Positions 34,302 to 53,147 of a stretch of DNA of 64,000 bases are shown here, in pieces (the first letter of the stretch is position 1; each line of letters opens with the position of its first letter). The stretch is from Escherichia phage Lw1. Where the stretch lies: sequence record KC801932; one strand, given 5' to 3'. The notes under the pieces were generated by a model. It had not been told where the DNA came from, did not search any database, and was given only the letters and a program-made list of their open reading frames with translations. Made by a program: the position numbers and the translations under genes.

Positions 34302-35967
34302 GTATCAGAATATTCTGTCGGTAGGGAATACCCCGATCGAACTTGAATTCGATACTGCAAAGAAAACCCTGATCACGGGTAAAAATGGTGGTGGTAAATC
34401 CACACTGATCGAAGCGTTGACGTATGCTCTTTTTGGTAAGTCATTTCGTGATTTAAAAGTCGGGCAACTGGTAAACAGTGTCAACAAAAAGAAATGTCTG
34501 GTTGAACTGGATATTGAATACGGGAAAGATTCGTACAAAGTCGTTCGCGGACAAAAGCCGAAAGTATTCGAGATCTGGAAAAACGGTGATAAGTTAGCAG
34601 AAGATTCAGCAGCGGGTGATTATCAATCTCAGCTTGAATCCATGCTCAATATTAACCTGGTTGGATTCAAACAGGTAATCGTTTTGGGTACTGCTGGCTA
34701 TACTCCATTCATGGAACTGAAAACACCGGATCGCCGTAAACTGGTTGAAGACCTGTTGTCGCTATCGGTTATCAGTGAAATGGATAAGCTGAACAAATCA
34801 TATGTCCGTGGTGTTAATCAGCAGTTGGATACCCTGTCAATGCAGGTTAACCACATCCAGCAGCAGATCGCTACACACCAGCGCTTCATTGATGAACAGC
34901 GAGCTAAAGCGAACCAGAACAACGCACGATACAAAGAGATCTACGATAGCCACGTTGAAACCGCTAAGAATATCAAAGCACAGCTTATGCAGTTGCAAGC
35001 GGAGATCGCAGAAACGGTGATCACTGGCGCAGACCGAACGGAAGATATAAACAAACTCCGTGATGGATATACGCGCCTCTCTATGACTGTAGAACAGTTT
35101 AAAAAGCTGGAAGTGATGTATCAGAAAGGTGGTGAGTGTCCGGCCTGTAAACAGGCGATTACGCCCACTCCTGAACGCATGGAAGAGATCGCAAACAACA
35201 TCAAAGCGGGTACGCAACGATTAACGCTGATCAAAACCAAACAGGACGAGTTGCAAGGCATTATGAACGAGTTGCTTCAACAGCAACGCGCACTGAATGC
35301 TATGAAAACGAAATACGAAGCCCTGAAAGGTACGCTGCAAAATGAAGTTGCCAACGCTAAACGCGCACAAGCGATCATGGAACAGGCAAGCGCGGAAGTT
35401 GTTATTGATGAAGAACCTGTTAAGCAGTTGCAACAACAGGAAGCAGATCTGAACGATAAACGTCAAGGATATGTGAAAGAAAAATATATCCGTGGTATCG
35501 TTACAGATATGTTAAAAGATTCGGGTGTAAAAGCCAGCATCGTAAAACGTTATATCCCGTACTTCAACAAGCAGATCGCATACTATCTGGATCTGTTGGG
35601 CGCTGACTACCAGTTCACGTTAGATGATGAATTCAACGAATCAATCAAATCACTGGGGCGCGATGATTTTAGTTACGCATCATTTAGCCAGGGTGAACGC
35701 GCACGAATCAACTTATCGATTCTGTTTACATGGCGCGACGTAACAAGCAAAGTTTCCGGCGTGGACCTGTCTCTTCTGATTATGGACGAAGTTTTCGATA
35801 ACGCTCTTGATAAAGAAGGTGCGTTTGCTGTAGGGGCTGTTCTGAATGGTATTGATGGTAATATCATGGTGATTAGCCACAACGATTTAGACCCTGGTGA
35901 TTTCGATCGTCATATCGTCATGGCTAAATTGGGGCGCTTCTCGAAGATGGAAATCAAGAAGTCTTAA
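34276..35967 (+). CDS. 46: recombination endonuclease subunit (Rad50/SbcC-like ATPase)
   Basis: 563 aa; GTG start; Walker A GKNGGGKS, central coiled coil with CPAC zinc hook, C-terminal signature/Walker B. Confidence 0.9.
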   Translation: MKLNFKKIKYQNILSVGNTPIELEFDTAKKTLITGKNGGGKSTLIEALTYALFGKSFRDLKVGQLVNSVNKKKCLVELDIEYGKDSYKVVRGQKPKVFEIWKNGDKLAEDSAAGDYQSQLESMLNINLVGFKQVIVLGTAGYTPFMELKTPDRRKLVEDLLSLSVISEMDKLNKSYVRGVNQQLDTLSMQVNHIQQQIATHQRFIDEQRAKANQNNARYKEIYDSHVETAKNIKAQLMQLQAEIAETVITGADRTEDINKLRDGYTRLSMTVEQFKKLEVMYQKGGECPACKQAITPTPERMEEIANNIKAGTQRLTLIKTKQDELQGIMNELLQQQRALNAMKTKYEALKGTLQNEVANAKRAQAIMEQASAEVVIDEEPVKQLQQQEADLNDKRQGYVKEKYIRGIVTDMLKDSGVKASIVKRYIPYFNKQIAYYLDLLGADYQFTLDDEFNESIKSLGRDDFSYASFSQGERARINLSILFTWRDVTSKVSGVDLSLLIMDEVFDNALDKEGAFAVGAVLNGIDGNIMVISHNDLDPGDFDRHIVMAKLGRFSKMEIKKS

Positions 35968-36664
35968 ACTTACAGTTGTCAAAATGCCATCGTTTCATAT
36001 TGGTGGCATCACCAACTTTAGCGCAATGGGGGCAAGTTAATTGCTCCCTTTTCTTTTGTATTTTTCTGTCTGGGTTCTTGGTACAATATGGAATATGACT
36101 GTTCAAGTAATGCACTGTCGATTCTGTACCACAATGAGGACAAGAACCGCGCTCCGATACTACGTTTCTGTTTTTATGTGCTCGCATGACTCCTGCAAAT
36201 GCATTCACTTTCCCTTCATTGCCTGGCTTGTTCTTGCAGTTGTCGAAGTGCCAGCGGTTCATATTACCTACTAAGCCGGACGTATTGCAATGAGGACACG
36301 TAACCCTGTTCTGTTGAAGTTTGGCCTGTCTCATGCGTAAGCGTGTCTCTTCGCTGAACTCTTTTTGTTTCTGGGCTTCAAGTGCTTTTTCTTTTAACCA
36401 TCCATAGCGGCGGTTTGCTGTACGCGCAGACGATCGAGAAGTGCCGACTGTAAGCATGTTAGCAGCATAAATTAGTTTATGGTTGCCTGGATACATCTTA
36501 ACCAATAGCAGATGTGCTATGAAATGTTGACGTGCTGACAGTTCAACCAGATTTTCGGGATCGTCCGATCCTCCCATACATTTTGGAACGATGTGGTGTT
36601 TCTCTTTGTACTCTGCATCCGTTCCGGCAGTCATGAGTTGTTCGTAAATCTTATGATAATTCAT
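35954..36664 (-). CDS. HNH homing-endonuclease-like protein with three C-terminal zinc-finger repeats
   Basis: 236 aa; HNH core HHIVPKCMGGSDDPENLVELSARQHFIAH; three copies of CPHC-x12-14-(R/K)WHFDNCK; opposite strand to flanking genes. Confidence 0.8.
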   Translation of the reverse strand: MNYHKIYEQLMTAGTDAEYKEKHHIVPKCMGGSDDPENLVELSARQHFIAHLLLVKMYPGNHKLIYAANMLTVGTSRSSARTANRRYGWLKEKALEAQKQKEFSEETRLRMRQAKLQQNRVTCPHCNTSGLVGNMNRWHFDNCKNKPGNEGKVNAFAGVMRAHKNRNVVSERGSCPHCGTESTVHYLNSHIPYCTKNPDRKIQKKREQLTCPHCAKVGDATNMKRWHFDNCKFKTS

Positions 36665-36712
36665 GATGATAAACCCTGTTTGATAGTCCGTTAGATACCC
36701 CTATTTAGGAAC

Positions 36713-36910
36713 ATGATTATGTTAGAACGAGAATTTGAATTGATGACCTCTCCAGAAGCGGAGAGGTTTTATCTTCATAACGAACTGTTGGAAGAAAAAC
36801 ACGTTGTCACTATGGAAGATGTCAAAGAAGCCTTTAAAGACAATCAGTTAGAGCTAACGCGAATACTGAATAATAAATCGTCTATGTGGTTTCTCGAAAA
36901 AATCTATTGA
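36713..36910 (+). CDS. hypothetical protein
   Basis: 65 aa; followed by terminator. Confidence 0.45.
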   Translation: MIMLEREFELMTSPEAERFYLHNELLEEKHVVTMEDVKEAFKDNQLELTRILNNKSSMWFLEKIY

Positions 36911-36936
36911 CATCAGAACATAAATACCTTAAAGTT

Positions 36937-36969
36937 GCCCGTGTACTGAGTTGCACGGGCTTTTATTTT
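36937..36969 (+). terminator. intrinsic terminator (GCCCGTG...CACGGGC + TTTTATTTT)
   Basis: 7-bp GC stem plus T-run between the 65-aa ORF and the J-domain gene. Confidence 0.7.
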
Positions 36970-36981
36970 GAGGAACGGAAA

Positions 36982-38679
36982 ATGATTAACGAAAAAATGA
37001 CACACCGCGAAGCGTTGGAAATCTTAGGGGCCACGGGTACTGAATCCAAAGCTGAAATGTCCAAACTCTTCAAACGTGCTTCTCTGCGTAATCACCCCGA
37101 TCGTGGTGGTAGCACAGAACTCATGCAAAAAATTAACCAGGCATATGACGTAGTAACGAGAACAAACAGTTCTGGTGAAACTATGATGGATATGCGAGCG
37201 CGTCACGCAGCGAATAAAAAAGCGTGGGAAGAAAAACTGGATGCGTATTTTGTTGTTGCTAAGAACTATTTCAGCACGAAATTTAACGCACAGGAATTCG
37301 CTGAATACTTCACCAAATACACCGGACAGCCGACGACCTTCACACAGGAAGTCAAGAAAGATACAATTTCCGTATCTGCTGTGTTCCGTTTCACTTCTGG
37401 TGATGCTCACTTTGATTTCGCTTTCTACTGCAAGCCAGAAGAAGGTAAAGGTTTGATGTCTCCTGATGCAAGCGCATTGGGTAGTGTTTCTGTCAATACT
37501 CTGGTACTGGTTGGAACCAAAAAACATAAAATGGCAAGCCGTGAATATCAATGGGGCAAAAACCCAGATAAGATCACACCGGAAAGCCTGTTCCCGTCCA
37601 AGAAACTTGCATCAATTTTCAGCCCGACACAAAAGAACCTCAAGTTCAAACGTGCTGACTATATGACTTCTTTCCGCAAGCACTTAGACGCAGAAATCAG
37701 CGGCAATGATATCTATGTTCCTGTAGGCGACCTGAAAGTTCGTTTCTATCGTCATGTAATGATGCGTAAAGGTGCGTATGTGTTTAGTGCGGTATACGAC
37801 CCAGCGGTAAGTAAATTCCGTTCTGCTGCAAACCTTCGCGGAACTATGTTCGAAGACGAAGACGGCGCATGTTTGGATATGATTATCGACACTTTCAAAG
37901 AAATGCAGAAAGCAAAACCGAACGTTAACGGTATTGTCAGTATCATTGACAAGATGAACGCAGAATTCGCAGCGGGACACCGTTCAGCATCTTTCGTCAA
38001 ACGTATGGCACAGCAAGCAGCAGCACCGAAGCCGGAAGAAAAGCCGAAACGCACTGTTAACCGTATCAGCAAAGATGATTATTTCAACGCATTGAAACAA
38101 GCGGGTGCAACATTCCGTAGCAACTACGGTGAGTTTGATAACGGCGCTGGATTGACTTTCCACTTCAAGCGCGAGATCAGCAACCGTAAAGGCTTCTGGA
38201 GTTTCAGCAGTTTTAATTTCATGCACTCCGGTCAACGTCATGTTGAATGGTTGAAAGATATCGACATTGACGAAGACAGCAAAGGTGCAAGTATCGGTCT
38301 GATGGTTGATACTCTGAAACAGTTGCGTGGTGTTGCTGATTGGTATACTGCAAGAAAGATCCTGGAAGCGATGCGCGATAACTTCAAAGCTGGTAAGTTC
38401 TCCGCACCACACGTTAAGAAAGAAGCCGAACAGAAACGCACTGAGGCGCAAGCTAAGGACGAGTTAGGCGCACAGCCTACCAAACCCCATGAAGCGAAGA
38501 AAGAAGCCCCAGCAGTTGATAAGGCTCACGAGGCGCAAATGGCGAAAGAGAAAGCACAGATGAATGCAACTATTCGTTCTATGCTCTCCGCTCTGGTTAA
38601 AGCTGGACGCAAAGACACGCCGGAAGAAATTAAAAAAGCAGTTGATGAAGCAATCGCTCTTTGGCGCTTGAAACACTAA
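36982..38679 (+). CDS. J-domain (DnaJ-like) protein, large, C-terminal region of unknown function
   Basis: 565 aa from ATG after GAGGA; N-terminal J-domain with HPD (EALEILGATGTESKAEMSKLFKRASLRNHPDRGGSTELMQKINQAYDVV); Lys/Ala/Glu-rich tail. Confidence 0.75.
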   Translation: MINEKMTHREALEILGATGTESKAEMSKLFKRASLRNHPDRGGSTELMQKINQAYDVVTRTNSSGETMMDMRARHAANKKAWEEKLDAYFVVAKNYFSTKFNAQEFAEYFTKYTGQPTTFTQEVKKDTISVSAVFRFTSGDAHFDFAFYCKPEEGKGLMSPDASALGSVSVNTLVLVGTKKHKMASREYQWGKNPDKITPESLFPSKKLASIFSPTQKNLKFKRADYMTSFRKHLDAEISGNDIYVPVGDLKVRFYRHVMMRKGAYVFSAVYDPAVSKFRSAANLRGTMFEDEDGACLDMIIDTFKEMQKAKPNVNGIVSIIDKMNAEFAAGHRSASFVKRMAQQAAAPKPEEKPKRTVNRISKDDYFNALKQAGATFRSNYGEFDNGAGLTFHFKREISNRKGFWSFSSFNFMHSGQRHVEWLKDIDIDEDSKGASIGLMVDTLKQLRGVADWYTARKILEAMRDNFKAGKFSAPHVKKEAEQKRTEAQAKDELGAQPTKPHEAKKEAPAVDKAHEAQMAKEKAQMNATIRSMLSALVKAGRKDTPEEIKKAVDEAIALWRLKH

Positions 38680-43287: not shown

Positions 43288-43307
43288 GCCCCTTCGGGGG
43301 CTTTTAT
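43288..43307 (+). terminator. intrinsic terminator (GCCCC-TTCG-GGGGC + T-run)
   Basis: after nrdA stop. Confidence 0.65.
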
Positions 43308-43318
43308 AAGGTAAACTC

Positions 43319-44494
43319 ATGTTAACAGTAATGAACACAAACCCCGAACACAAACACTTAGAACAGCCGATGTTCTTCGGTGAGGATACGGGGGTTGCCC
43401 GATATGAAGAACAAAAACACAGTGTATTTGAAAAGCTGACTGAAAAACAACTGTCATTCTTCTGGCGACCGGAAGAAGTGGATCTGTCGATTGACCGTAT
43501 GCAGTATGCGAAAATGCCGGAACATGAAAAAATCATTTTCGATTCTAACCTGCAATATCAAACCCTACTGGATACCATTCAGGGACGCGGCCCTAACCTT
43601 GCATTTCTCCCGATTGCCTCTGATGTATCAATGGAAACGTGGATCGAAACATGGGCGTTCAGTGAAACAATTCACAGTCGCAGTTATACGCACATTCAGC
43701 GCAACCTGCATATCGATCCGGCTAAAGAGTTCGACAAAATCCTTCGTAACGAAGCGATCATGAAACGTTCTGCATCAATGACCAGTTATTACGATAACTT
43801 GATCAGCGAATGTCATGAACTGAAAAACATCGTTCTCAAGATCGAAATGATGACATCCCACGGATACCCAGACGAATCGATCGCTGAATACGAACAGAAA
43901 CGCAAAGAGCAAATGCGCAAATGTAAGGTTGCTCTTTATCTGTGTATGCACGCTGTCAACGCTCTGGAAGCGATTCGTTTCTATGTCTCGTTTACCTTTA
44001 CGTTCAACTTTGCCGAACAGGGCAAGATGGAAGGTAACGCAAAGATCATGCGTCTGATTGCCCGTGATGAAGCACTTCATCAGAAAGGTACTCAAAGCAA
44101 GATCCGACTCTGGCAGATGGGTAAAGATGACCCAGAAATGGCAGAAATCGCGTATCAGTACGAAGAAGAAGCAACACAGATTTTCCTCGAAGTTTACGAG
44201 CAGGAAAAAGAATGGGCTGAACACTTATTCAGTATTGGTGATGTTGACGGCGTGACACTGAAAAGTACAATCGCCTATATCGAACACTTAACCGACCAAC
44301 GTATGCGAGCGGTTGGGTTACAGTCTCCGTTTAAACCGAGTCCTAACCCGTATCCGTGGATGAACAAATGGTTGAAGTCTGACAACGTTCAGGTAGCCCC
44401 GCAAGAGGTTGAAGTAAGTTCTTACCTGGTTGGCAACCTCAACACTGAGATCAGCGACGAAGCCTATGCAAAATGGCGACAAAAATACGCTTGA
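43319..44494 (+). CDS. nrdB: ribonucleotide reductase beta subunit
   Basis: 391 aa, uninterrupted; di-iron/tyrosyl radical region (ETWAFSETIHSRSYTHI). Confidence 0.95.
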   Translation: MLTVMNTNPEHKHLEQPMFFGEDTGVARYEEQKHSVFEKLTEKQLSFFWRPEEVDLSIDRMQYAKMPEHEKIIFDSNLQYQTLLDTIQGRGPNLAFLPIASDVSMETWIETWAFSETIHSRSYTHIQRNLHIDPAKEFDKILRNEAIMKRSASMTSYYDNLISECHELKNIVLKIEMMTSHGYPDESIAEYEQKRKEQMRKCKVALYLCMHAVNALEAIRFYVSFTFTFNFAEQGKMEGNAKIMRLIARDEALHQKGTQSKIRLWQMGKDDPEMAEIAYQYEEEATQIFLEVYEQEKEWAEHLFSIGDVDGVTLKSTIAYIEHLTDQRMRAVGLQSPFKPSPNPYPWMNKWLKSDNVQVAPQEVEVSSYLVGNLNTEISDEAYAKWRQKYA

Positions 44495-44777
44495 TTGTCG
44501 CGTCGTAAACAAGTATAAAGGTAACTGGGATGTCGATATTCAAAGAGGTACGAAGTTCGGCAATCCCTTTTACAAGGGAACACGGGGTGAAAACATTCTT
44601 AACTTCATCCCGTATTTCCAAAACTTGATTCGAACTGGCGTGATCACAATCGACGAACTGAAAGAACTGGACGGGAAGCGGTTAGGCTGTAGTTGCAAAC
44701 CCTTACCGTGTCACGGTGATTATATTGCTCACTGCGTCAATGTGTTGACCGGAAAGGTGAATAAGTTGGATATATAA
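44466..44777 (+). CDS. DUF4326-like small protein (GNPF and CSCKPLPCHGD motifs)
   Basis: about 103 aa from first in-frame ATG of track ORF; start overlaps nrdB 3' end; family assignment from memory. Confidence 0.5.
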   Translation: MQNGDKNTLDCRVVNKYKGNWDVDIQRGTKFGNPFYKGTRGENILNFIPYFQNLIRTGVITIDELKELDGKRLGCSCKPLPCHGDYIAHCVNVLTGKVNKLDI

Positions 44778-45175
44778 TGGACGATGTAACGTTTGGTGTA
44801 ATATTTCCTTTGCGTCTGGGTTCAGACAAAAGGATAGATCGGAGTTTTGTTAAATGTGGTGAATTCCGGCATTGTGTATATTTTATTGAAATCGACGGTC
44901 GGATAGTGTATGTTGGCAAGTGTCGTGATTTGTGGAAGCGGTTAGACACATACCGCAATTCGAAATACTGGCGGGAAGCAAACCCCAGTAACATTTTGAA
45001 AACCGCACGTCTGGAAATGGCAATCAAAAAAGGTAAACGTGTAAATCTTATCGTGACAACACACGACGAAAGCACGTATCACGATTTTGAAATCAACATG
45101 ATCCGAAAAATTAATCCTGAATGGAACAAACAGCACTATGACAAATCTAACCAAAAATCAGAAAACCCTCTTTGA
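44777..45175 (+). CDS. denA: endonuclease II (GIY-YIG)
   Basis: 132 aa (T4 DenA 136); GIY-YIG-like VYFIEIDGRIVYVGK; follows nrdB as in T4. Confidence 0.6.
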   Translation: MDDVTFGVIFPLRLGSDKRIDRSFVKCGEFRHCVYFIEIDGRIVYVGKCRDLWKRLDTYRNSKYWREANPSNILKTARLEMAIKKGKRVNLIVTTHDESTYHDFEINMIRKINPEWNKQHYDKSNQKSENPL

Positions 45176-46295
45176 CCAGTTGATGAAACTGTGTAACGAA
45201 AGCGAATGCTTCTATTTCATTGATCAAAAAACCGTGATGCAAACCCATGTTCGCATCTTTAACTATCGCATGGCGAGCTATTCCGACTGGTTAAAACCTG
45301 GTGCGCTGGAATGTCGCGGTATCATGTTTGTGATGGATGGGGATACCCCCGTAAAACTCGTCAGTCGCCCGATGGAGAAGTTTTTCAACTATGCCGAAGT
45401 AAAGGCATGGGAAGCACTTAAAGCCGCTCCTGTAACGATTGGTGAAACCGTAGTTGATGTGATGATTAAGGAAGATGGTTCCCTTATTTCCACCTTCTGT
45501 GATTCCGGCTATCTGGGCGTTAAGTCTAAAGCATCAGTTCAATCTGAACAGGCTATGGACGCTATGAGCGTGATTCAGAGAAACCGCGCACTGTTCGATC
45601 GTCTGACCGAACTGGTTAATGATGGTTTCACAGTCAATATGGAATACGTCGCACCAACAAACCGTATCGTAATTGGTTATCAGGAACCAGCAGTGGTGAT
45701 CCTGAACATCCGTAATAACGACACGGGCGAATACGTCGATTATCAGGACATCTTCGCAGATAGTGTATTACGTCCGTTCCTGGTTGAGCGTGAGAAAATC
45801 GAAGTCACCGATCTGGATGCATTCATTACCGAAGCCTACACGAAAGAAGGTTTTGAGGGTTACGTAATCAAAACTGATAAAGGGTTCGTGAAAGCGAAAA
45901 CTAACTGGTACGTAAACCTACACCGCACGAAAGATAGCATCAACAATAATAAGGATCTGTTCTTAAATATTGTTGAAAATACCGTAGATGACCTGAAACA
46001 AATGTTCCTCGATGATATGTACGCACTCAAGAAAATTGACGCATTCGAAACGTTATTCCTTGATAGTCTGAATCGTCTGACTGCAAAAGCATTCCAGGCA
46101 ATCGAAGACACGAAAGGCAAATCACACAAAGATTACGCGATCGCCCTGAGTTCTGACTTAACCCCTGACGGTCGTATCATCTTCGGGCCTATGATGCGTT
46201 ATTTTGATGATACCGATAAGCAAAAGCTGGTCGATAACATCGTTGCATTAATGGCGAAGAACTACGAACAGTTTATACCGGAAGAATATAAATGA
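45138..46295 (+). CDS. rnlA: RNA ligase 1
   Basis: 385 aa; adenylation lysine motif KEDGSL; T4 gene 63 size and position. Confidence 0.7.
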   Translation: MTNLTKNQKTLFDQLMKLCNESECFYFIDQKTVMQTHVRIFNYRMASYSDWLKPGALECRGIMFVMDGDTPVKLVSRPMEKFFNYAEVKAWEALKAAPVTIGETVVDVMIKEDGSLISTFCDSGYLGVKSKASVQSEQAMDAMSVIQRNRALFDRLTELVNDGFTVNMEYVAPTNRIVIGYQEPAVVILNIRNNDTGEYVDYQDIFADSVLRPFLVEREKIEVTDLDAFITEAYTKEGFEGYVIKTDKGFVKAKTNWYVNLHRTKDSINNNKDLFLNIVENTVDDLKQMFLDDMYALKKIDAFETLFLDSLNRLTAKAFQAIEDTKGKSHKDYAIALSSDLTPDGRIIFGPMMRYFDDTDKQKLVDNIVALMAKNYEQFIPEEYK

Positions 46296-46618: not shown

Positions 46619-46941
46619 AAATAACGACATTAGCCCTTGTTCTGGGCGTTCTGTTGGTCGGGTGTGCTGAGAAGCCCCCTGAAAAGATTTTGCCGACTTT
46701 ACCCGCTAAGGTAAACCCTGTTGATGTGAAATGGAAAGTAATGGCGGAAGTAAGGGAAATCGACGGGAAGAAATATCTCGTTATGCCGTTTGACGGCAAC
46801 CCATACGTTGCGCTATCATATCCAGACTCATTGATTTTTCGTAGCTGGATGAATGACGTTAAGCGACAGAAAGATCAAACCGATAATATCCTATGTACCG
46901 TGGGATATTCCGAAAAATGCAAATTGAGAGATTCTAAATGA
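46615..46941 (+). CDS. o-spanin-like outer-membrane lipoprotein
   Basis: 108 aa; signal peptide with lipobox LLVGC. Confidence 0.6.
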   Translation: MKITTLALVLGVLLVGCAEKPPEKILPTLPAKVNPVDVKWKVMAEVREIDGKKYLVMPFDGNPYVALSYPDSLIFRSWMNDVKRQKDQTDNILCTVGYSEKCKLRDSK

Positions 46942-47825
46942 ACCTGTTTATTACTGTAGGCGTACCAGGTAGCGGGAAAACTACATGGGCGAAAGAAAAA
47001 GCGCGTCAACTGGGGAACACTCTGACTGTTTCCCGTGACGATATCCGTCGAACCCTTTATTGTGCTGGCGGTGATCTAACTGGCTACCGCTTCACCGAAG
47101 AGAAAGAAAAACTGGTAACTCAGATGCAAACCAATATTGTTCTTAGTGCTCTGGGGCATGGAAAGAACGTTATTGTACACAATACGCATCTTAAACCAGG
47201 CGACCATATCTTCTGGAAAGAACTCGCGAAAGGAACAGGCGCGGAGTTGCATTTCGAATACTTTGATGTTGATATCGTCGAACTGCTGAAGCGCAACCAT
47301 AAACGCGGTGTAAATGCTTTGCCTGTCTCCCGTGTATGGGAAATGTTTACACAGTATCGTAAATTGCGTGGTTGGGTTCCGGCTATGCAGTACGCAGATC
47401 CAAACAAACCAAAATGCGTTATCTTCGACGTTGACGGAACGTTAACCAAAGTTGGACAGCGTAGCCCGTATGACTTTACGAAGGTAATCAACGATCCGGC
47501 TAACCCTCCGGTTCAGGAACTGTTCAGAATGTATAAAGCCTCTGGCTATGCCTGTGTTGTTGTATCGGGGCGTGAGGGTACTGTACAGTGCGCACATGAT
47601 ACCGCTGCAAGCCTGATCGGGTATGGTGTTGACCTGAGCGATGGTATTTTCATGCGCGAAGAAGGGGATCATCGTCACGATTTTCACGTAAAAGAGCAAA
47701 TACTTGTTGAAAAGATTCTCGATAAGTATTATCCTGTTCTTGCAGTGGACGACCGAGATACCCCTACCGGAATGTGGCGAATGAACGGTATCCCATGTTT
47801 CCAGGTTGATTACGGCGACTTCTAA
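46938..47825 (+). CDS. pseT: polynucleotide 5'-kinase/3'-phosphatase
   Basis: 295 aa; P-loop GVPGSGKTT; phosphatase DVDGTL; parallels T4 Pnk throughout. Confidence 0.9.
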   Translation: MNLFITVGVPGSGKTTWAKEKARQLGNTLTVSRDDIRRTLYCAGGDLTGYRFTEEKEKLVTQMQTNIVLSALGHGKNVIVHNTHLKPGDHIFWKELAKGTGAELHFEYFDVDIVELLKRNHKRGVNALPVSRVWEMFTQYRKLRGWVPAMQYADPNKPKCVIFDVDGTLTKVGQRSPYDFTKVINDPANPPVQELFRMYKASGYACVVVSGREGTVQCAHDTAASLIGYGVDLSDGIFMREEGDHRHDFHVKEQILVEKILDKYYPVLAVDDRDTPTGMWRMNGIPCFQVDYGDF

Positions 47826-52706: not shown

Positions 52707-53147
52707 GTGGACATTGGTTCGGGTAGTCAATATCCATCATGTGCATTGAGCAACTTCGCCCCGCATCCGTTCACTTTTGACGGGGTAGAATGTGCATCAA
52801 TGGAGGGTTTTTTACAAAGCCTGAAATACAGCAACCCAGATATGCAAGCGCATGTGTGTACTCTGGTAGGTAAAGCCGCCAAGTTCAAAGGCAAGAAAAA
52901 GAAATGGTATCGCGATCAGACCCTATACTGGAAAGGTACACCGATTCACCGTGAGTCCGAAGCGTATCAGATTCTTATCGAAAACGCGTACAATGCTCTT
53001 TTCCTGAATGACGGGTTTCGCCGTGCGTTGAAAGCAACCGGAAAAAGCACCTTGACTCATTCAATGGGAAAGAATAAGATGAATGAAACAGTGCTCACCG
53101 AACGTGAGTTTGTTCGAAATTTAACCCGACTAAGGGATCTGCTATGA
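52707..53147 (+). CDS. NADAR-domain protein (YbiA-like, DUF1768)
   Basis: 146 aa; N-terminal YPSCALSNFAPHPFTFDGVECASMEGFLQSLKY fits the NADAR signature; GTG start. Confidence 0.7.
   Translation: MDIGSGSQYPSCALSNFAPHPFTFDGVECASMEGFLQSLKYSNPDMQAHVCTLVGKAAKFKGKKKKWYRDQTLYWKGTPIHRESEAYQILIENAYNALFLNDGFRRALKATGKSTLTHSMGKNKMNETVLTEREFVRNLTRLRDLL

What the first reader, a model, noticed from the sequence alone, without database searches (positions are those of the whole stretch)
44466..44777. DUF4326-like small protein wedged between nrdB and denA, overlapping the nrdB 3' end
The ORF has GNPF and CSCKPLPCHGD motifs that I associate with the DUF4326 family, whose function is unknown and which I recall as sometimes linked with NADAR domains. 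Here NADAR and the DUF4326-like protein are separate genes about 8 kb apart. Its start lies inside the last about 30 nt of nrdB in another frame.
Basis: partly seen in the sequence, partly recalled or inferred. Interest (0 to 1): 0.5.

Follow-up and report, generated by a model that had tools for sequence, protein, structure and literature searches.

The report
T4 NrdA.1-type DUF4326 gene after nrdB
The small gene after nrdB is real and conserved: it is this phage's copy of T4 nrdA.1, a DUF4326 protein of untested function that is probably a small cysteine enzyme handling phosphate on ribose, so the finding is correct but ordinary.

Summary
ORF 44466..44777 (+, 103 aa, ATG) overlaps the nrdB 3' end by 29 nt in another frame. 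Its stop overlaps the start of the denA-like gene. It matches Pfam DUF4326 (63 bits against a cutoff of 25, E 4e-17) and evolves under strong purifying selection (dN/dS 0.04-0.13).

The window is a Pseudotevenvirus (T4-like). The gene is the homologue of T4 NrdA.1. About 2,000 phage records carry a homologue, annotated 'hypothetical' in the rows inspected.

Across T4-like phages the gene stays in the td...denA-rnlA segment. The nrdAB genes lie upstream of it, downstream of it, or not next to it, so it is not an RNR part.

Longer relatives are fused mostly to SLOG domains, less often to Macro or NADAR. The NADAR gene 8 kb away is gp30.3 (52707..53147), confirmed at fold level.

My best guess is a cysteine-dependent enzyme acting on ribose-linked phosphate of nucleotide or ADP-ribose-derived substrates. 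That activity is inferred, not shown. The gene is already known, so interest is low to moderate.

The parts
44466..44777 (+). DUF4326 gene, the NrdA.1 homologue; 103 aa, single domain
   Evidence: Pfam PF14216 at 63 bits, E 4.3e-17. PHROG 464, E 7.7e-38. dN/dS 0.04-0.13. AF2 model pLDDT 90.3, pTM 0.83.
44466..44494 (+). 29-nt out-of-frame overlap between the DUF4326 start and the nrdB 3' end
   Evidence: Sequence read. The same ATG and upstream sequence are conserved in orthologues L001, L004 and L005.
44556..44570 (+). FGNPF motif (residues 31-35); G32, N33 and P34 are nearly invariant
   Evidence: N33 is kept in 271 and P34 in 267 of 275 domains. In a non-significant alignment it lines up with the L-P-N188-P189-H190 motif of RapZ-C, and H190 lines the RapZ anion pocket.
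44679..44720 (+). RLGCSCKPLPCHGD (residues 72-85): end of a strand, a loop and the start of a helix; the predicted active or ligand site
   Evidence: C75 275/275, C77 274/275, P79 274/275, C82 275/275, H83 274/275 and D85 264/275. The model has a strand at 72-75 and a helix at 83-94. It aligns with RapZ AIGC247-TGGK-H252-R253-S.
43319..44494 (+). nrdB, the upstream gene in the same terminator-free gene run
   Evidence: Pfam Ribonuc_red_sm, E 6.5e-39.
43288..43301 (+). terminator-like hairpin between nrdA and nrdB; no strong (5 G-C pair) hairpin follows before 46346, only weak 3-4 G-C-pair pattern matches inside coding sequence
   Evidence: GCCCCTTCGGGGGC followed by TTTT. A terminator is annotated at the same place in Margaery.
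44777..45175 (+). denA-like GIY-YIG endonuclease; its start overlaps the DUF4326 stop
   Evidence: PHROG 1111, E 1.8e-45. Weak Pfam GIY-YIG hit. 'T4 DenA-like' in Margaery.
45138..46295 (+). rnlA (RNA ligase 1), the next gene in the same run
   Evidence: Pfam RNA_lig_T4_1 and T4_Rnl1_C.
46938..47825 (+). pnk (polynucleotide kinase/phosphatase), further down the same syntenic block
   Evidence: Pfam HAD_PNKP E 1.1e-42 and AAA_33.

Best explanation
This is a genuine gene in the terminator-free nrdB-denA-rnlA gene run of a T4-like phage (genus Pseudotevenvirus). It encodes a stand-alone DUF4326 domain and is the homologue of T4 NrdA.1. It is not part of ribonucleotide reductase. The link to nrd genes is positional: the gene keeps its place in the td...denA-rnlA segment while the nrdAB pair sits on either side of it or not beside it. 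The protein is a minimal alpha/beta domain of the RapZ-C / DUF488 / DUF4326 branch of the rhodanese-phosphatase superfamily. One pocket is built from the D22...R27...FGNPF segment and the strand-loop-helix RLGC75-x-C77-x-P-x-P-C82-H83-G-D85. That pocket corresponds to the anion and phosphosugar pocket of RapZ-C. Inferred mechanism: the pocket binds a phosphate attached to a ribose or other sugar. The substrate would be a nucleotide, an ADP-ribose breakdown product or a related phosphoribosyl compound. One of the invariant cysteines (most likely C75, at the end of the strand) attacks the phosphate, as in metal-independent Cys phosphatases and transferases, helped by H83/D85 and R27. In other phages and mobile elements the domain works next to, or fused with, SLOG, Macro or NADAR domains, which cut or bind ribose-linked groups. 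In T4-like phages it stands alone. The biological role is then clean-up, salvage or neutralisation of NAD/ADP-ribose or nucleotide-derived products early in infection, possibly as counter-defence. What is shown: gene reality, family membership, homology to T4 NrdA.1, synteny, the fusion partners and the weak fold match. What is inferred: the substrate class, catalysis by cysteine and the counter-defence role.
Confidence: 0.45

Rival explanations
1. The protein is not a catalyst. It is either a small Cys3-His metal-binding module or a tight binder (a sponge or sensor) of a phosphosugar or nucleotide ligand, acting by sequestration or by regulating a partner, as RapZ-C senses GlcN6P.
For: C75, C77, C82 and H83 are all invariant to about the same degree, as expected for metal ligands. 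The closest solved relative, RapZ-C, binds GlcN6P without turning it over (the pocket is described). The protein is only 103 aa.
Against: The homologous Cys in RapZ-C is not a metal ligand: the text read from the 1.17 A structure paper describes only malonate or sulfate in the pocket. C82 and H83 are adjacent residues, a poor geometry for jointly binding one metal ion (my inference; I could not obtain model coordinates). Invariant D22, R27, N33 and D85 go beyond what a structural metal site needs. Recurrent fusion to hydrolase-type SLOG, Macro and NADAR domains suggests one step in a pathway.
Confidence: 0.2
2. It is an RNA-end (or DNA-end) healing enzyme that works with the neighbouring RnlA and Pnk repair genes. 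It would remove or transfer an unusual terminal phosphate (for example a 2'-phosphate or 3'-phosphate) left by host anticodon nucleases or other nucleases.
For: In all 32 T4-like loci the gene lies in the block that also holds denA and rnlA, with pnk further downstream where the fetched flank reaches it. In two contigs that are not T4-like (L035, L041), rnlA and pnk lie 1.4-3 kb away on the opposite strand. As I recall it, the Burroughs and Aravind 2023 paper predicts activities on RNA termini and DNA ends for this clade (the paper is not held; the reference was seen).
Against: Synteny within T4-like phages is a single inherited arrangement. L035 and L041 resemble each other and count as about one independent case. 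Most loci outside the T4-like phages have no rnlA or pnk nearby. The commonest partners (SLOG, Macro, NADAR) act on small ribosyl compounds or ADP-ribose adducts.
Confidence: 0.15
3. It is an accessory factor of the phage ribonucleotide reductase, for example a redox or cofactor-maintenance protein. This would be analogous in position to E. coli YfaE downstream of nrdB, using the three cysteines.
For: It overlaps the nrdB stop codon here and overlaps the nrdA start in T4. It has three invariant cysteines. Some database entries call relatives 'ribonucleotide reductase NrdA-like'.
Against: Eight T4-like loci have td-DUF4326-denA with no nrdAB beside the gene. The N4-like phage SP5M has the gene but no RNR annotated in its complete 72.9-kb genome. 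Only 1-2 of about 50 loci outside the T4-like phages have an NrdA homologue within 6 kb. There are no Pfam hits to ferredoxin, flavodoxin or glutaredoxin. The 'NrdA-like' label looks like drift from the T4 gene name nrdA.1. The fusion partners are unrelated to RNR.
Confidence: 0.06
4. It is a chance ORF or an annotation artefact in the nrdB-denA junction.
For: There is only a weak Shine-Dalgarno-like sequence upstream (GACGAAG), and the start is buried in nrdB.
Against: HMM E 4e-17. dN/dS 0.04-0.13. The gene is conserved in thousands of genomes. The fold prediction is confident.
Confidence: 0.01

Closest known systems
Phage T4 NrdA.1 (NP_049846.1, 108 aa)
   Same: Same Pfam family (78.7 bits). 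55% identity over residues 11-94. Same size, same invariant Cys/His motif, same td...rnlA neighbourhood, and tightly overlapped with an nrd gene.
   Different: In T4 the gene lies directly upstream of nrdA, after nrdA.2. Here it lies directly downstream of nrdB. T4 has WGNYV where this protein has FGNPF. Neither protein has a known function.
[quoted passage not shown]
   Same: Full-length profile match. All family-invariant residues are present. The fusion partners reported in the literature (SLOG, Macro, NADAR) were reproduced here.
   Different: This is a stand-alone version with no SLOG, Macro or PF08719 partner in the window. The predicted activity has not been tested for any member.
RapZ C-terminal domain (PDB 5o5s, 5o5q), the GlcN6P-binding domain of the E. 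coli RNase adaptor
   Different: RapZ-C keeps the C-X5-R-S signature. DUF4326 has a loop two residues longer, with two extra invariant Cys and two Pro, and Gly in place of the Arg. RapZ-C is a sensor joined to a kinase-like domain and an RNA-binding tail. The sequence similarity is not statistically significant (E 0.2).
Cys-dependent protein-tyrosine and dual-specificity phosphatases, PTEN, rhodanese/Cdc25
E. coli YfaE, NrdH and NrdI (small RNR accessory proteins encoded next to nrd genes)
   Same: Only the position: a small Cys-containing gene beside nrdB or nrdA.
   Different: No homology. DUF4326 occurs in phages without RNR and away from nrd genes.

Membership tests
Pfam PF14216 (DUF4326) | Profile HMM score above the gathering threshold over the whole domain | tested here: met
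   63 bits against a cutoff of 25, E 4.3e-17, profile positions 1-81 of 82.
Pfam PF14216 (DUF4326) | Family-invariant residues: D, R, G-N-P, and G-C-x-C-x-P-x-P-C-H-G-D | tested here: met
   All are present: D22, R27, G32, N33, P34, C75, C77, P79, P81, C82, H83, G84, D85. Each is kept in 264-275 of 275 domains, except P81 (189 of 275).
T4 NrdA.1 homologue group (T4-like phages) | Sequence similarity to T4 NrdA.1 across the domain | tested here: met
   55% identity over residues 11-94, E 1e-18. Both proteins hit PF14216.
T4 NrdA.1 homologue group (T4-like phages) | Conserved position in the frd-td...denA-rnlA early gene block | tested here: met
   All 32 T4-like loci have the gene in this block. 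Its position relative to nrdAB differs: upstream, downstream or no nrdAB nearby.
Rhodanese-phosphatase superfamily (RapZ-C / DUF488 / DUF4326 clade) | Fold similarity to a solved member | tested here: inconclusive
Rhodanese-phosphatase superfamily (RapZ-C / DUF488 / DUF4326 clade) | Detectable sequence-profile relationship to RapZ-C or DUF488 | tested here: inconclusive
   hhalign against a 102-sequence RapZ-C alignment gives E 0.2, though the 80-column alignment is colinear over all three motifs. 6 of 60 members weakly hit Pfam DUF488-N3a, best E 0.024.
Rhodanese-phosphatase superfamily (RapZ-C / DUF488 / DUF4326 clade) | Active-site architecture: Cys at the C-terminal end of a strand, then a loop, then a helix N-terminus | tested here: met
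   The model has a strand at 72-75 ending in C75, a loop at 76-82 and a helix at 83-94.
Rhodanese-phosphatase superfamily (RapZ-C / DUF488 / DUF4326 clade) | C-X5-R phosphate-binding signature | tested here: not met
   The sequence is C75-S-C-K-P-L-P-C-H83-G84-D85, with Gly at the position that aligns with RapZ R253. RapZ-C has C247-TGGKH-R253-S.
Rhodanese-phosphatase superfamily (RapZ-C / DUF488 / DUF4326 clade) | Cys-dependent phosphate or sulfur transfer activity | not testable with these tools
   No experimental data were found for any DUF4326 or DUF488 protein.
NADAR (for the gene at 52707..53147) | Match to Pfam PF08719 | tested here: not met
   Only PF08010 (Phage_30_3) matches, even at E<=10. 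A profile search against PDB sequences finds no NADAR.
NADAR (for the gene at 52707..53147) | NADAR/YbiA fold | tested here: met
RNR accessory proteins (YfaE ferredoxin, NrdI flavodoxin, NrdH glutaredoxin) | Homology to one of these families | tested here: not met
   No such Pfam hit for the query or for 60 relatives, even at E<=10.
RNR accessory proteins (YfaE ferredoxin, NrdI flavodoxin, NrdH glutaredoxin) | Strict co-occurrence or adjacency with RNR genes | tested here: not met
   Eight T4-like loci lack adjacent nrdAB. SP5M has the gene but no annotated RNR.
Known defence or anti-defence catalogues (PADLOC) and NCBIfam | Profile match | tested here: not met
   No hits.

The most novel reading that the evidence does not exclude
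DUF4326/NrdA.1 is a new kind of cysteine enzyme that removes or transfers the phosphate on a ribose released from ADP-ribose adducts or nucleotide-derived immune signals. It would act downstream of an N-glycosidase-type partner: the NADAR-fold gp30.3 in T4-like phages, or SLOG/YAcAr proteins in N4-like phages and in conjugative elements, where it sits beside SSB and relaxase genes. Together these would form a widespread two-step anti-defence pathway present in about 4% of sequenced phages.
Probability: 0.15. Interest if true: 0.7.

Novelty: already known. Interest (0 to 1): 0.3.

Why it matters
The gene is ordinary in the sense that it has been catalogued for years. It is T4 nrdA.1, it belongs to Pfam DUF4326, and the relatives inspected annotate it as 'hypothetical'. 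It matters for two reasons. First, it belongs to one of the more widespread uncharacterised phage families with a clearly enzyme-like invariant site. I found it in 2,028 of 50,697 phage records and in more than 21,000 50%-identity clusters overall. It also occurs in model phages, where a clean deletion and a biochemical test are easy. Second, if the predicted ribose-phosphate chemistry and the link to SLOG, Macro and NADAR partners hold, the family would be a missing step in how phages and conjugative elements handle NAD/ADP-ribose-based host defences. The analysis also corrects a propagating mis-annotation ('ribonucleotide reductase NrdA-like').

Tried and rejected
1. RNR accessory role. I rejected it on distribution: eight T4-like loci have no adjacent nrdAB, the N4-like phage SP5M has no annotated RNR, and other phages show almost no nrd neighbours.

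2. Sequence searches against solved structures, with the DUF4326 profile and with the gp30.3 profile, found nothing.

3. Foldseek of the DUF4326 model against the PDB gave no hit below E 2. The afdb50 library was unavailable.

4. hhalign of the family against E. coli RapZ-C alone and against a 102-sequence RapZ-C alignment was not significant. Only the motif colinearity is usable.

5. A CDGSH-like or Fe-S reading of the C-x-C...C-H motif came from my own recall of the motif. The cysteine spacing differs and no Pfam hit supports it, so I did not pursue it.

6. Neighbour clustering in the high-GC bacterial MAG loci was confounded by long antisense shadow ORFs (cluster 1). I used only clusters that gave clear Pfam identities.

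7. The Burroughs and Aravind 2023 paper (NAR Genom Bioinform lqad029, PMC10034599) could not be read. Its content is cited from my memory only, and its existence.

8. A search for a SLOG, Macro or NADAR partner inside the window, using phmmer with 50 fusion proteins, hit only the DUF4326 ORF itself.

9. Co-occurrence of gp30.3 and DUF4326 is uninformative, because both are inherited across T4-like phages.

10. I could not obtain model coordinates, so the Cys-Cys and Cys-His distances that would separate a metal site from a catalytic site could not be measured.

Full report
**Observation.** The ORF runs 44466..44777 on the + strand, starts with ATG, ends with TAA and encodes 103 aa. It begins 29 nt before the TGA of nrdB (43319..44494; Pfam Ribonuc_red_sm), in a different frame. 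Its stop overlaps the ATG of the next gene in the sequence TAATG. That gene (44777..45175) is a DenA-like GIY-YIG endonuclease (PHROG 1111, E 1.8e-45; 'T4 DenA-like' in phage Margaery). It in turn overlaps rnlA (45138..46295; Pfam RNA_lig_T4_1 and T4_Rnl1_C). A hairpin followed by a T-run lies between nrdA and nrdB (43288..43301). No comparably strong hairpin follows before 46346; the scan lists only weak 3-4 G-C-pair matches inside coding sequence. So nrdB, the new ORF, denA and rnlA form one tightly packed unit.

**Is it more than chance?** Yes. The protein matches Pfam PF14216 (DUF4326) at 63 bits against a gathering score of 25, E 4.3e-17, over 81 of 82 profile positions. It also matches PHROG 464 ('unknown function') at E 7.7e-38. 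The window is 93-94% identical in DNA to Enterobacter, Citrobacter and Cronobacter phages of the genus Pseudotevenvirus (Straboviridae). Margaery annotates a 312-nt 'hypothetical protein' at exactly this position. Pairwise dN/dS against orthologues is 0.13, 0.04 and 0.09, with dS from 0.19 to 2.0, and the ATG with its upstream sequence is conserved. The gene is real and under strong purifying selection.

**What it is.** A tblastn search of 50,697 phage records finds a homologue in 2,028 of them. The T4 hit is gene nrdA.1 (55% identity over residues 11-94), and T4 NrdA.1 scores 78.7 bits to PF14216. In T4 the order is td - nrdA.2 - nrdA.1 - nrdA - mobE - nrdB.1 - nrdB, and nrdA.1 overlaps the nrdA start. 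I fetched 80 viral loci and searched their ORFs with this window's own proteins.

- All 32 T4-like loci keep the gene inside the frd-td...denA-rnlA block.
- In 7 loci (L001, L003-L008) it follows nrdA-nrdB, as in this window.
- In 16 loci it precedes nrdA, as in T4.
- In 8 loci (Aeromonas-phage types and others) the order is td - DUF4326 - denA - rnlA, with no nrdAB beside it.
- In one locus (L036) the order is denA - DUF4326 - rnlA.

So the gene is the positionally stable element and the nrdAB pair moves around it. 'Wedged between nrdB and denA' describes only the Pseudotevenvirus arrangement.

**Not an RNR component.** Apart from the eight T4-like loci above, only one or two of about 50 loci outside the T4-like phages have an NrdA homologue within 6 kb. 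The N4-like phage SP5M carries the gene (gp15, PF14216 at 79.8 bits) but has no RNR annotated anywhere in its complete 72.9-kb genome. SP5M gp15, some other records and PHROG 24867 are labelled 'ribonucleotide reductase NrdA-like'. Because these proteins are plain DUF4326 domains, I read this label as drift from the T4 gene name nrdA.1.

**Family anatomy.** In a 60-sequence alignment the invariant residues are D22, R27, G32, N33, C75, C77, P79, P81, C82, H83, G84 and D85. Over 275 domain instances the counts are C75 275, C77 274, P79 274, C82 275, H83 274, N33 271, R27 269, D22 265 and D85 264. An exhaustive HMM search of 1.84 billion cluster representatives finds 21,529 members at E<=1e-3, so the family is large. 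Most members are 90-110 aa and stand alone. Some carry two or three tandem domains.

**Pocket.** I took the RapZ sequence from E. coli K-12 and built a 102-sequence RapZ-C alignment. Profile-profile comparison is not significant (E 0.2). Even so, the 80-column local alignment is colinear over all three conserved segments.

- DUF4326 D22...R27...F-G-N33-P34-F aligns with RapZ D176/D178...R184-F-L-P-N188-P189-H190.
- DUF4326 R-L-G-C75-[SCKPLPC]-H83-G-D-x-I-A aligns with RapZ A-I-G-C247-[TGGK]-H252-R253-S-V-Y-I-A-E.

The RapZ residues are themselves almost invariant. They are the ones that hold malonate or sulfate in the crystal structures: H190, T248, G249, H252 and R253. [quoted passage not shown] The RapZ C-terminal domain binds the phosphosugar GlcN6P with nanomolar affinity (PMC7073468). 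RapZ-C retains a canonical C-X5-R-S signature. DUF4326 does not: its loop is two residues longer, carries two extra invariant cysteines and two prolines, and has Gly84 where RapZ has Arg253. I therefore infer that the FGNPF loop and the Cys loop form one anion or phosphosugar pocket.

**Partners.** Among the best 150 representatives, 47 are 150 aa or longer. Their extra domains are YAcAr SLOG (7), minimal SLOG (3), DprA-type SLOG (2), Macro (2), NADAR (1), Dam methylase (1), ASCH (1), HTH (2) and DUF4325 (1). SLOG fusions also appear among the viral contigs (L071, L076), as does an odd fusion to an RNA-polymerase fragment (L038). In SP5M a separate YAcAr SLOG gene (gp12) lies 0.6 kb upstream in the same early gene run. 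In bacterial genomes the closest relatives are often multi-copy; one Rhodospirillales MAG supplies at least nine of the 80 loci. In 17 of 79 loci the gene is followed directly by a 317-aa protein with a YAcAr domain. SSB (10 loci), TrwC relaxase/helicase (8) and integrase (6) lie nearby, a context typical of conjugative or integrative elements. A preprint notes that amoeba-virus homologues of the anti-Avs protein ORF83 (a LOG/SLOG-like predicted phosphoribohydrolase) carry a C-terminal DUF4326.

**How it most likely works.** Shown: gene reality, family, homology to T4 NrdA.1, synteny, a single invariant residue cluster, the fusion and neighbour partners, and a weak but top-ranked fold match to a phosphosugar-binding domain. 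Inferred: the pocket binds a sugar-linked phosphate; an invariant cysteine (C75 by position) acts as nucleophile, assisted by H83, D85 and R27; the substrates are phosphoribosyl compounds produced by or related to SLOG, Macro and NADAR chemistry, such as ADP-ribose breakdown products or nucleotide-derived signals. This matches the published prediction. I give it 0.45. The rivals are:

- a non-catalytic metal-binding or ligand-sponge/sensor protein (0.2), because the Cys3-His cluster is uniformly invariant and RapZ-C itself is a sensor;
- an RNA or DNA end-healing enzyme working with RnlA and Pnk (0.15), because the synteny is conserved and rnlA-pnk lie nearby in two contigs that are not T4-like (L035, L041);
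- an RNR accessory factor (0.06), largely refuted by distribution;
- a chance ORF (0.01), refuted.

**Known or novel?** The gene is already known. It is T4 nrdA.1, a Pfam family, a PHROG, and it appears as a 'hypothetical protein' in the related phage records I inspected, with a published in-silico functional prediction. I found no experimental characterisation of DUF4326, DUF488 or nrdA.1, and no match in NCBIfam or PADLOC. The finding is correct and its interpretation is supported. A specialist would not be surprised. Its value is as a tractable target in a model phage for an untested enzyme family. Interest is 0.3.

Noticed in passing
window 35821-36718 (ORF 35954..36664, minus strand): A 236-aa minus-strand ORF with a weak HNH hit and several zinc-ribbon hits lies in about 900 nt that has no counterpart at the same place in phage Margaery. 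It looks like a mobile HNH homing-endonuclease insertion between the gp46-like (SbcC-type) gene and the next gene.
   Followed up: partly
PHROG 24867; GenBank records such as NC_070869.1 gp15 (L164 4271-4651) and NC_041929.1: Plain DUF4326 proteins are annotated 'ribonucleotide reductase NrdA-like'. This appears to be drift from the T4 gene name nrdA.1. SP5M has no RNR annotated at all.
   Followed up: yes
L083 (NZ_JBHSCL010000010.1, 178,077-bp contig of a Flagellimonas marina assembly): A contig the size of a phage genome in a marine flavobacterium assembly encodes a DUF4326 protein 95% identical to the window's. It is probably a contaminating Pseudotevenvirus genome rather than Flagellimonas DNA.
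   Followed up: no
L084-L162, e.g. L145 5001-6287, L159 3905-7373, L123 8233-10231: In high-GC MAGs (Rhodospirillales, other Alphaproteobacteria, Ca. Rariloculaceae, Binatia) DUF4326 is multi-copy, with at least 9 loci from OZ243926.1. It is typically followed by a 317-aa YAcAr SLOG protein, with SSB, TrwC relaxase and integrase nearby. This suggests cargo of conjugative or integrative elements, possibly leading-region anti-defence genes.
   Followed up: partly
L038 6001-7494 and L043 (viral contigs): A 497-aa ORF joins an N-terminal DUF4326 domain to a fragment of a single-subunit DNA-dependent RNA polymerase (Pfam RNA_pol, E 2.9e-17). I do not know whether this is a true fusion or an assembly or stop-codon artefact.
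   Followed up: no
P0361 (352 aa), P0362, P0363, P0364 and others: Some family members contain two or three tandem DUF4326 domains in one polypeptide.
   Followed up: no
window 36886..38679: A 597-aa ORF has only a weak, sub-threshold DnaJ (J-domain) hit near its N-terminus. The Margaery counterpart is 'hypothetical'.
   Followed up: no
window 52707..53147: The gp30.3 family (1,506 phage records) has a NADAR/YbiA fold that Pfam PF08719 does not detect. T4-like phages therefore carry an unrecognised NADAR-type enzyme.
   Followed up: yes
L035 2044-6294 and L041 2399-6288: In two related viral contigs that are not T4-like, DUF4326 lies 1.4-3 kb from a divergently oriented rnlA-pnk pair. This echoes the T4-like neighbourhood.
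   Followed up: partly
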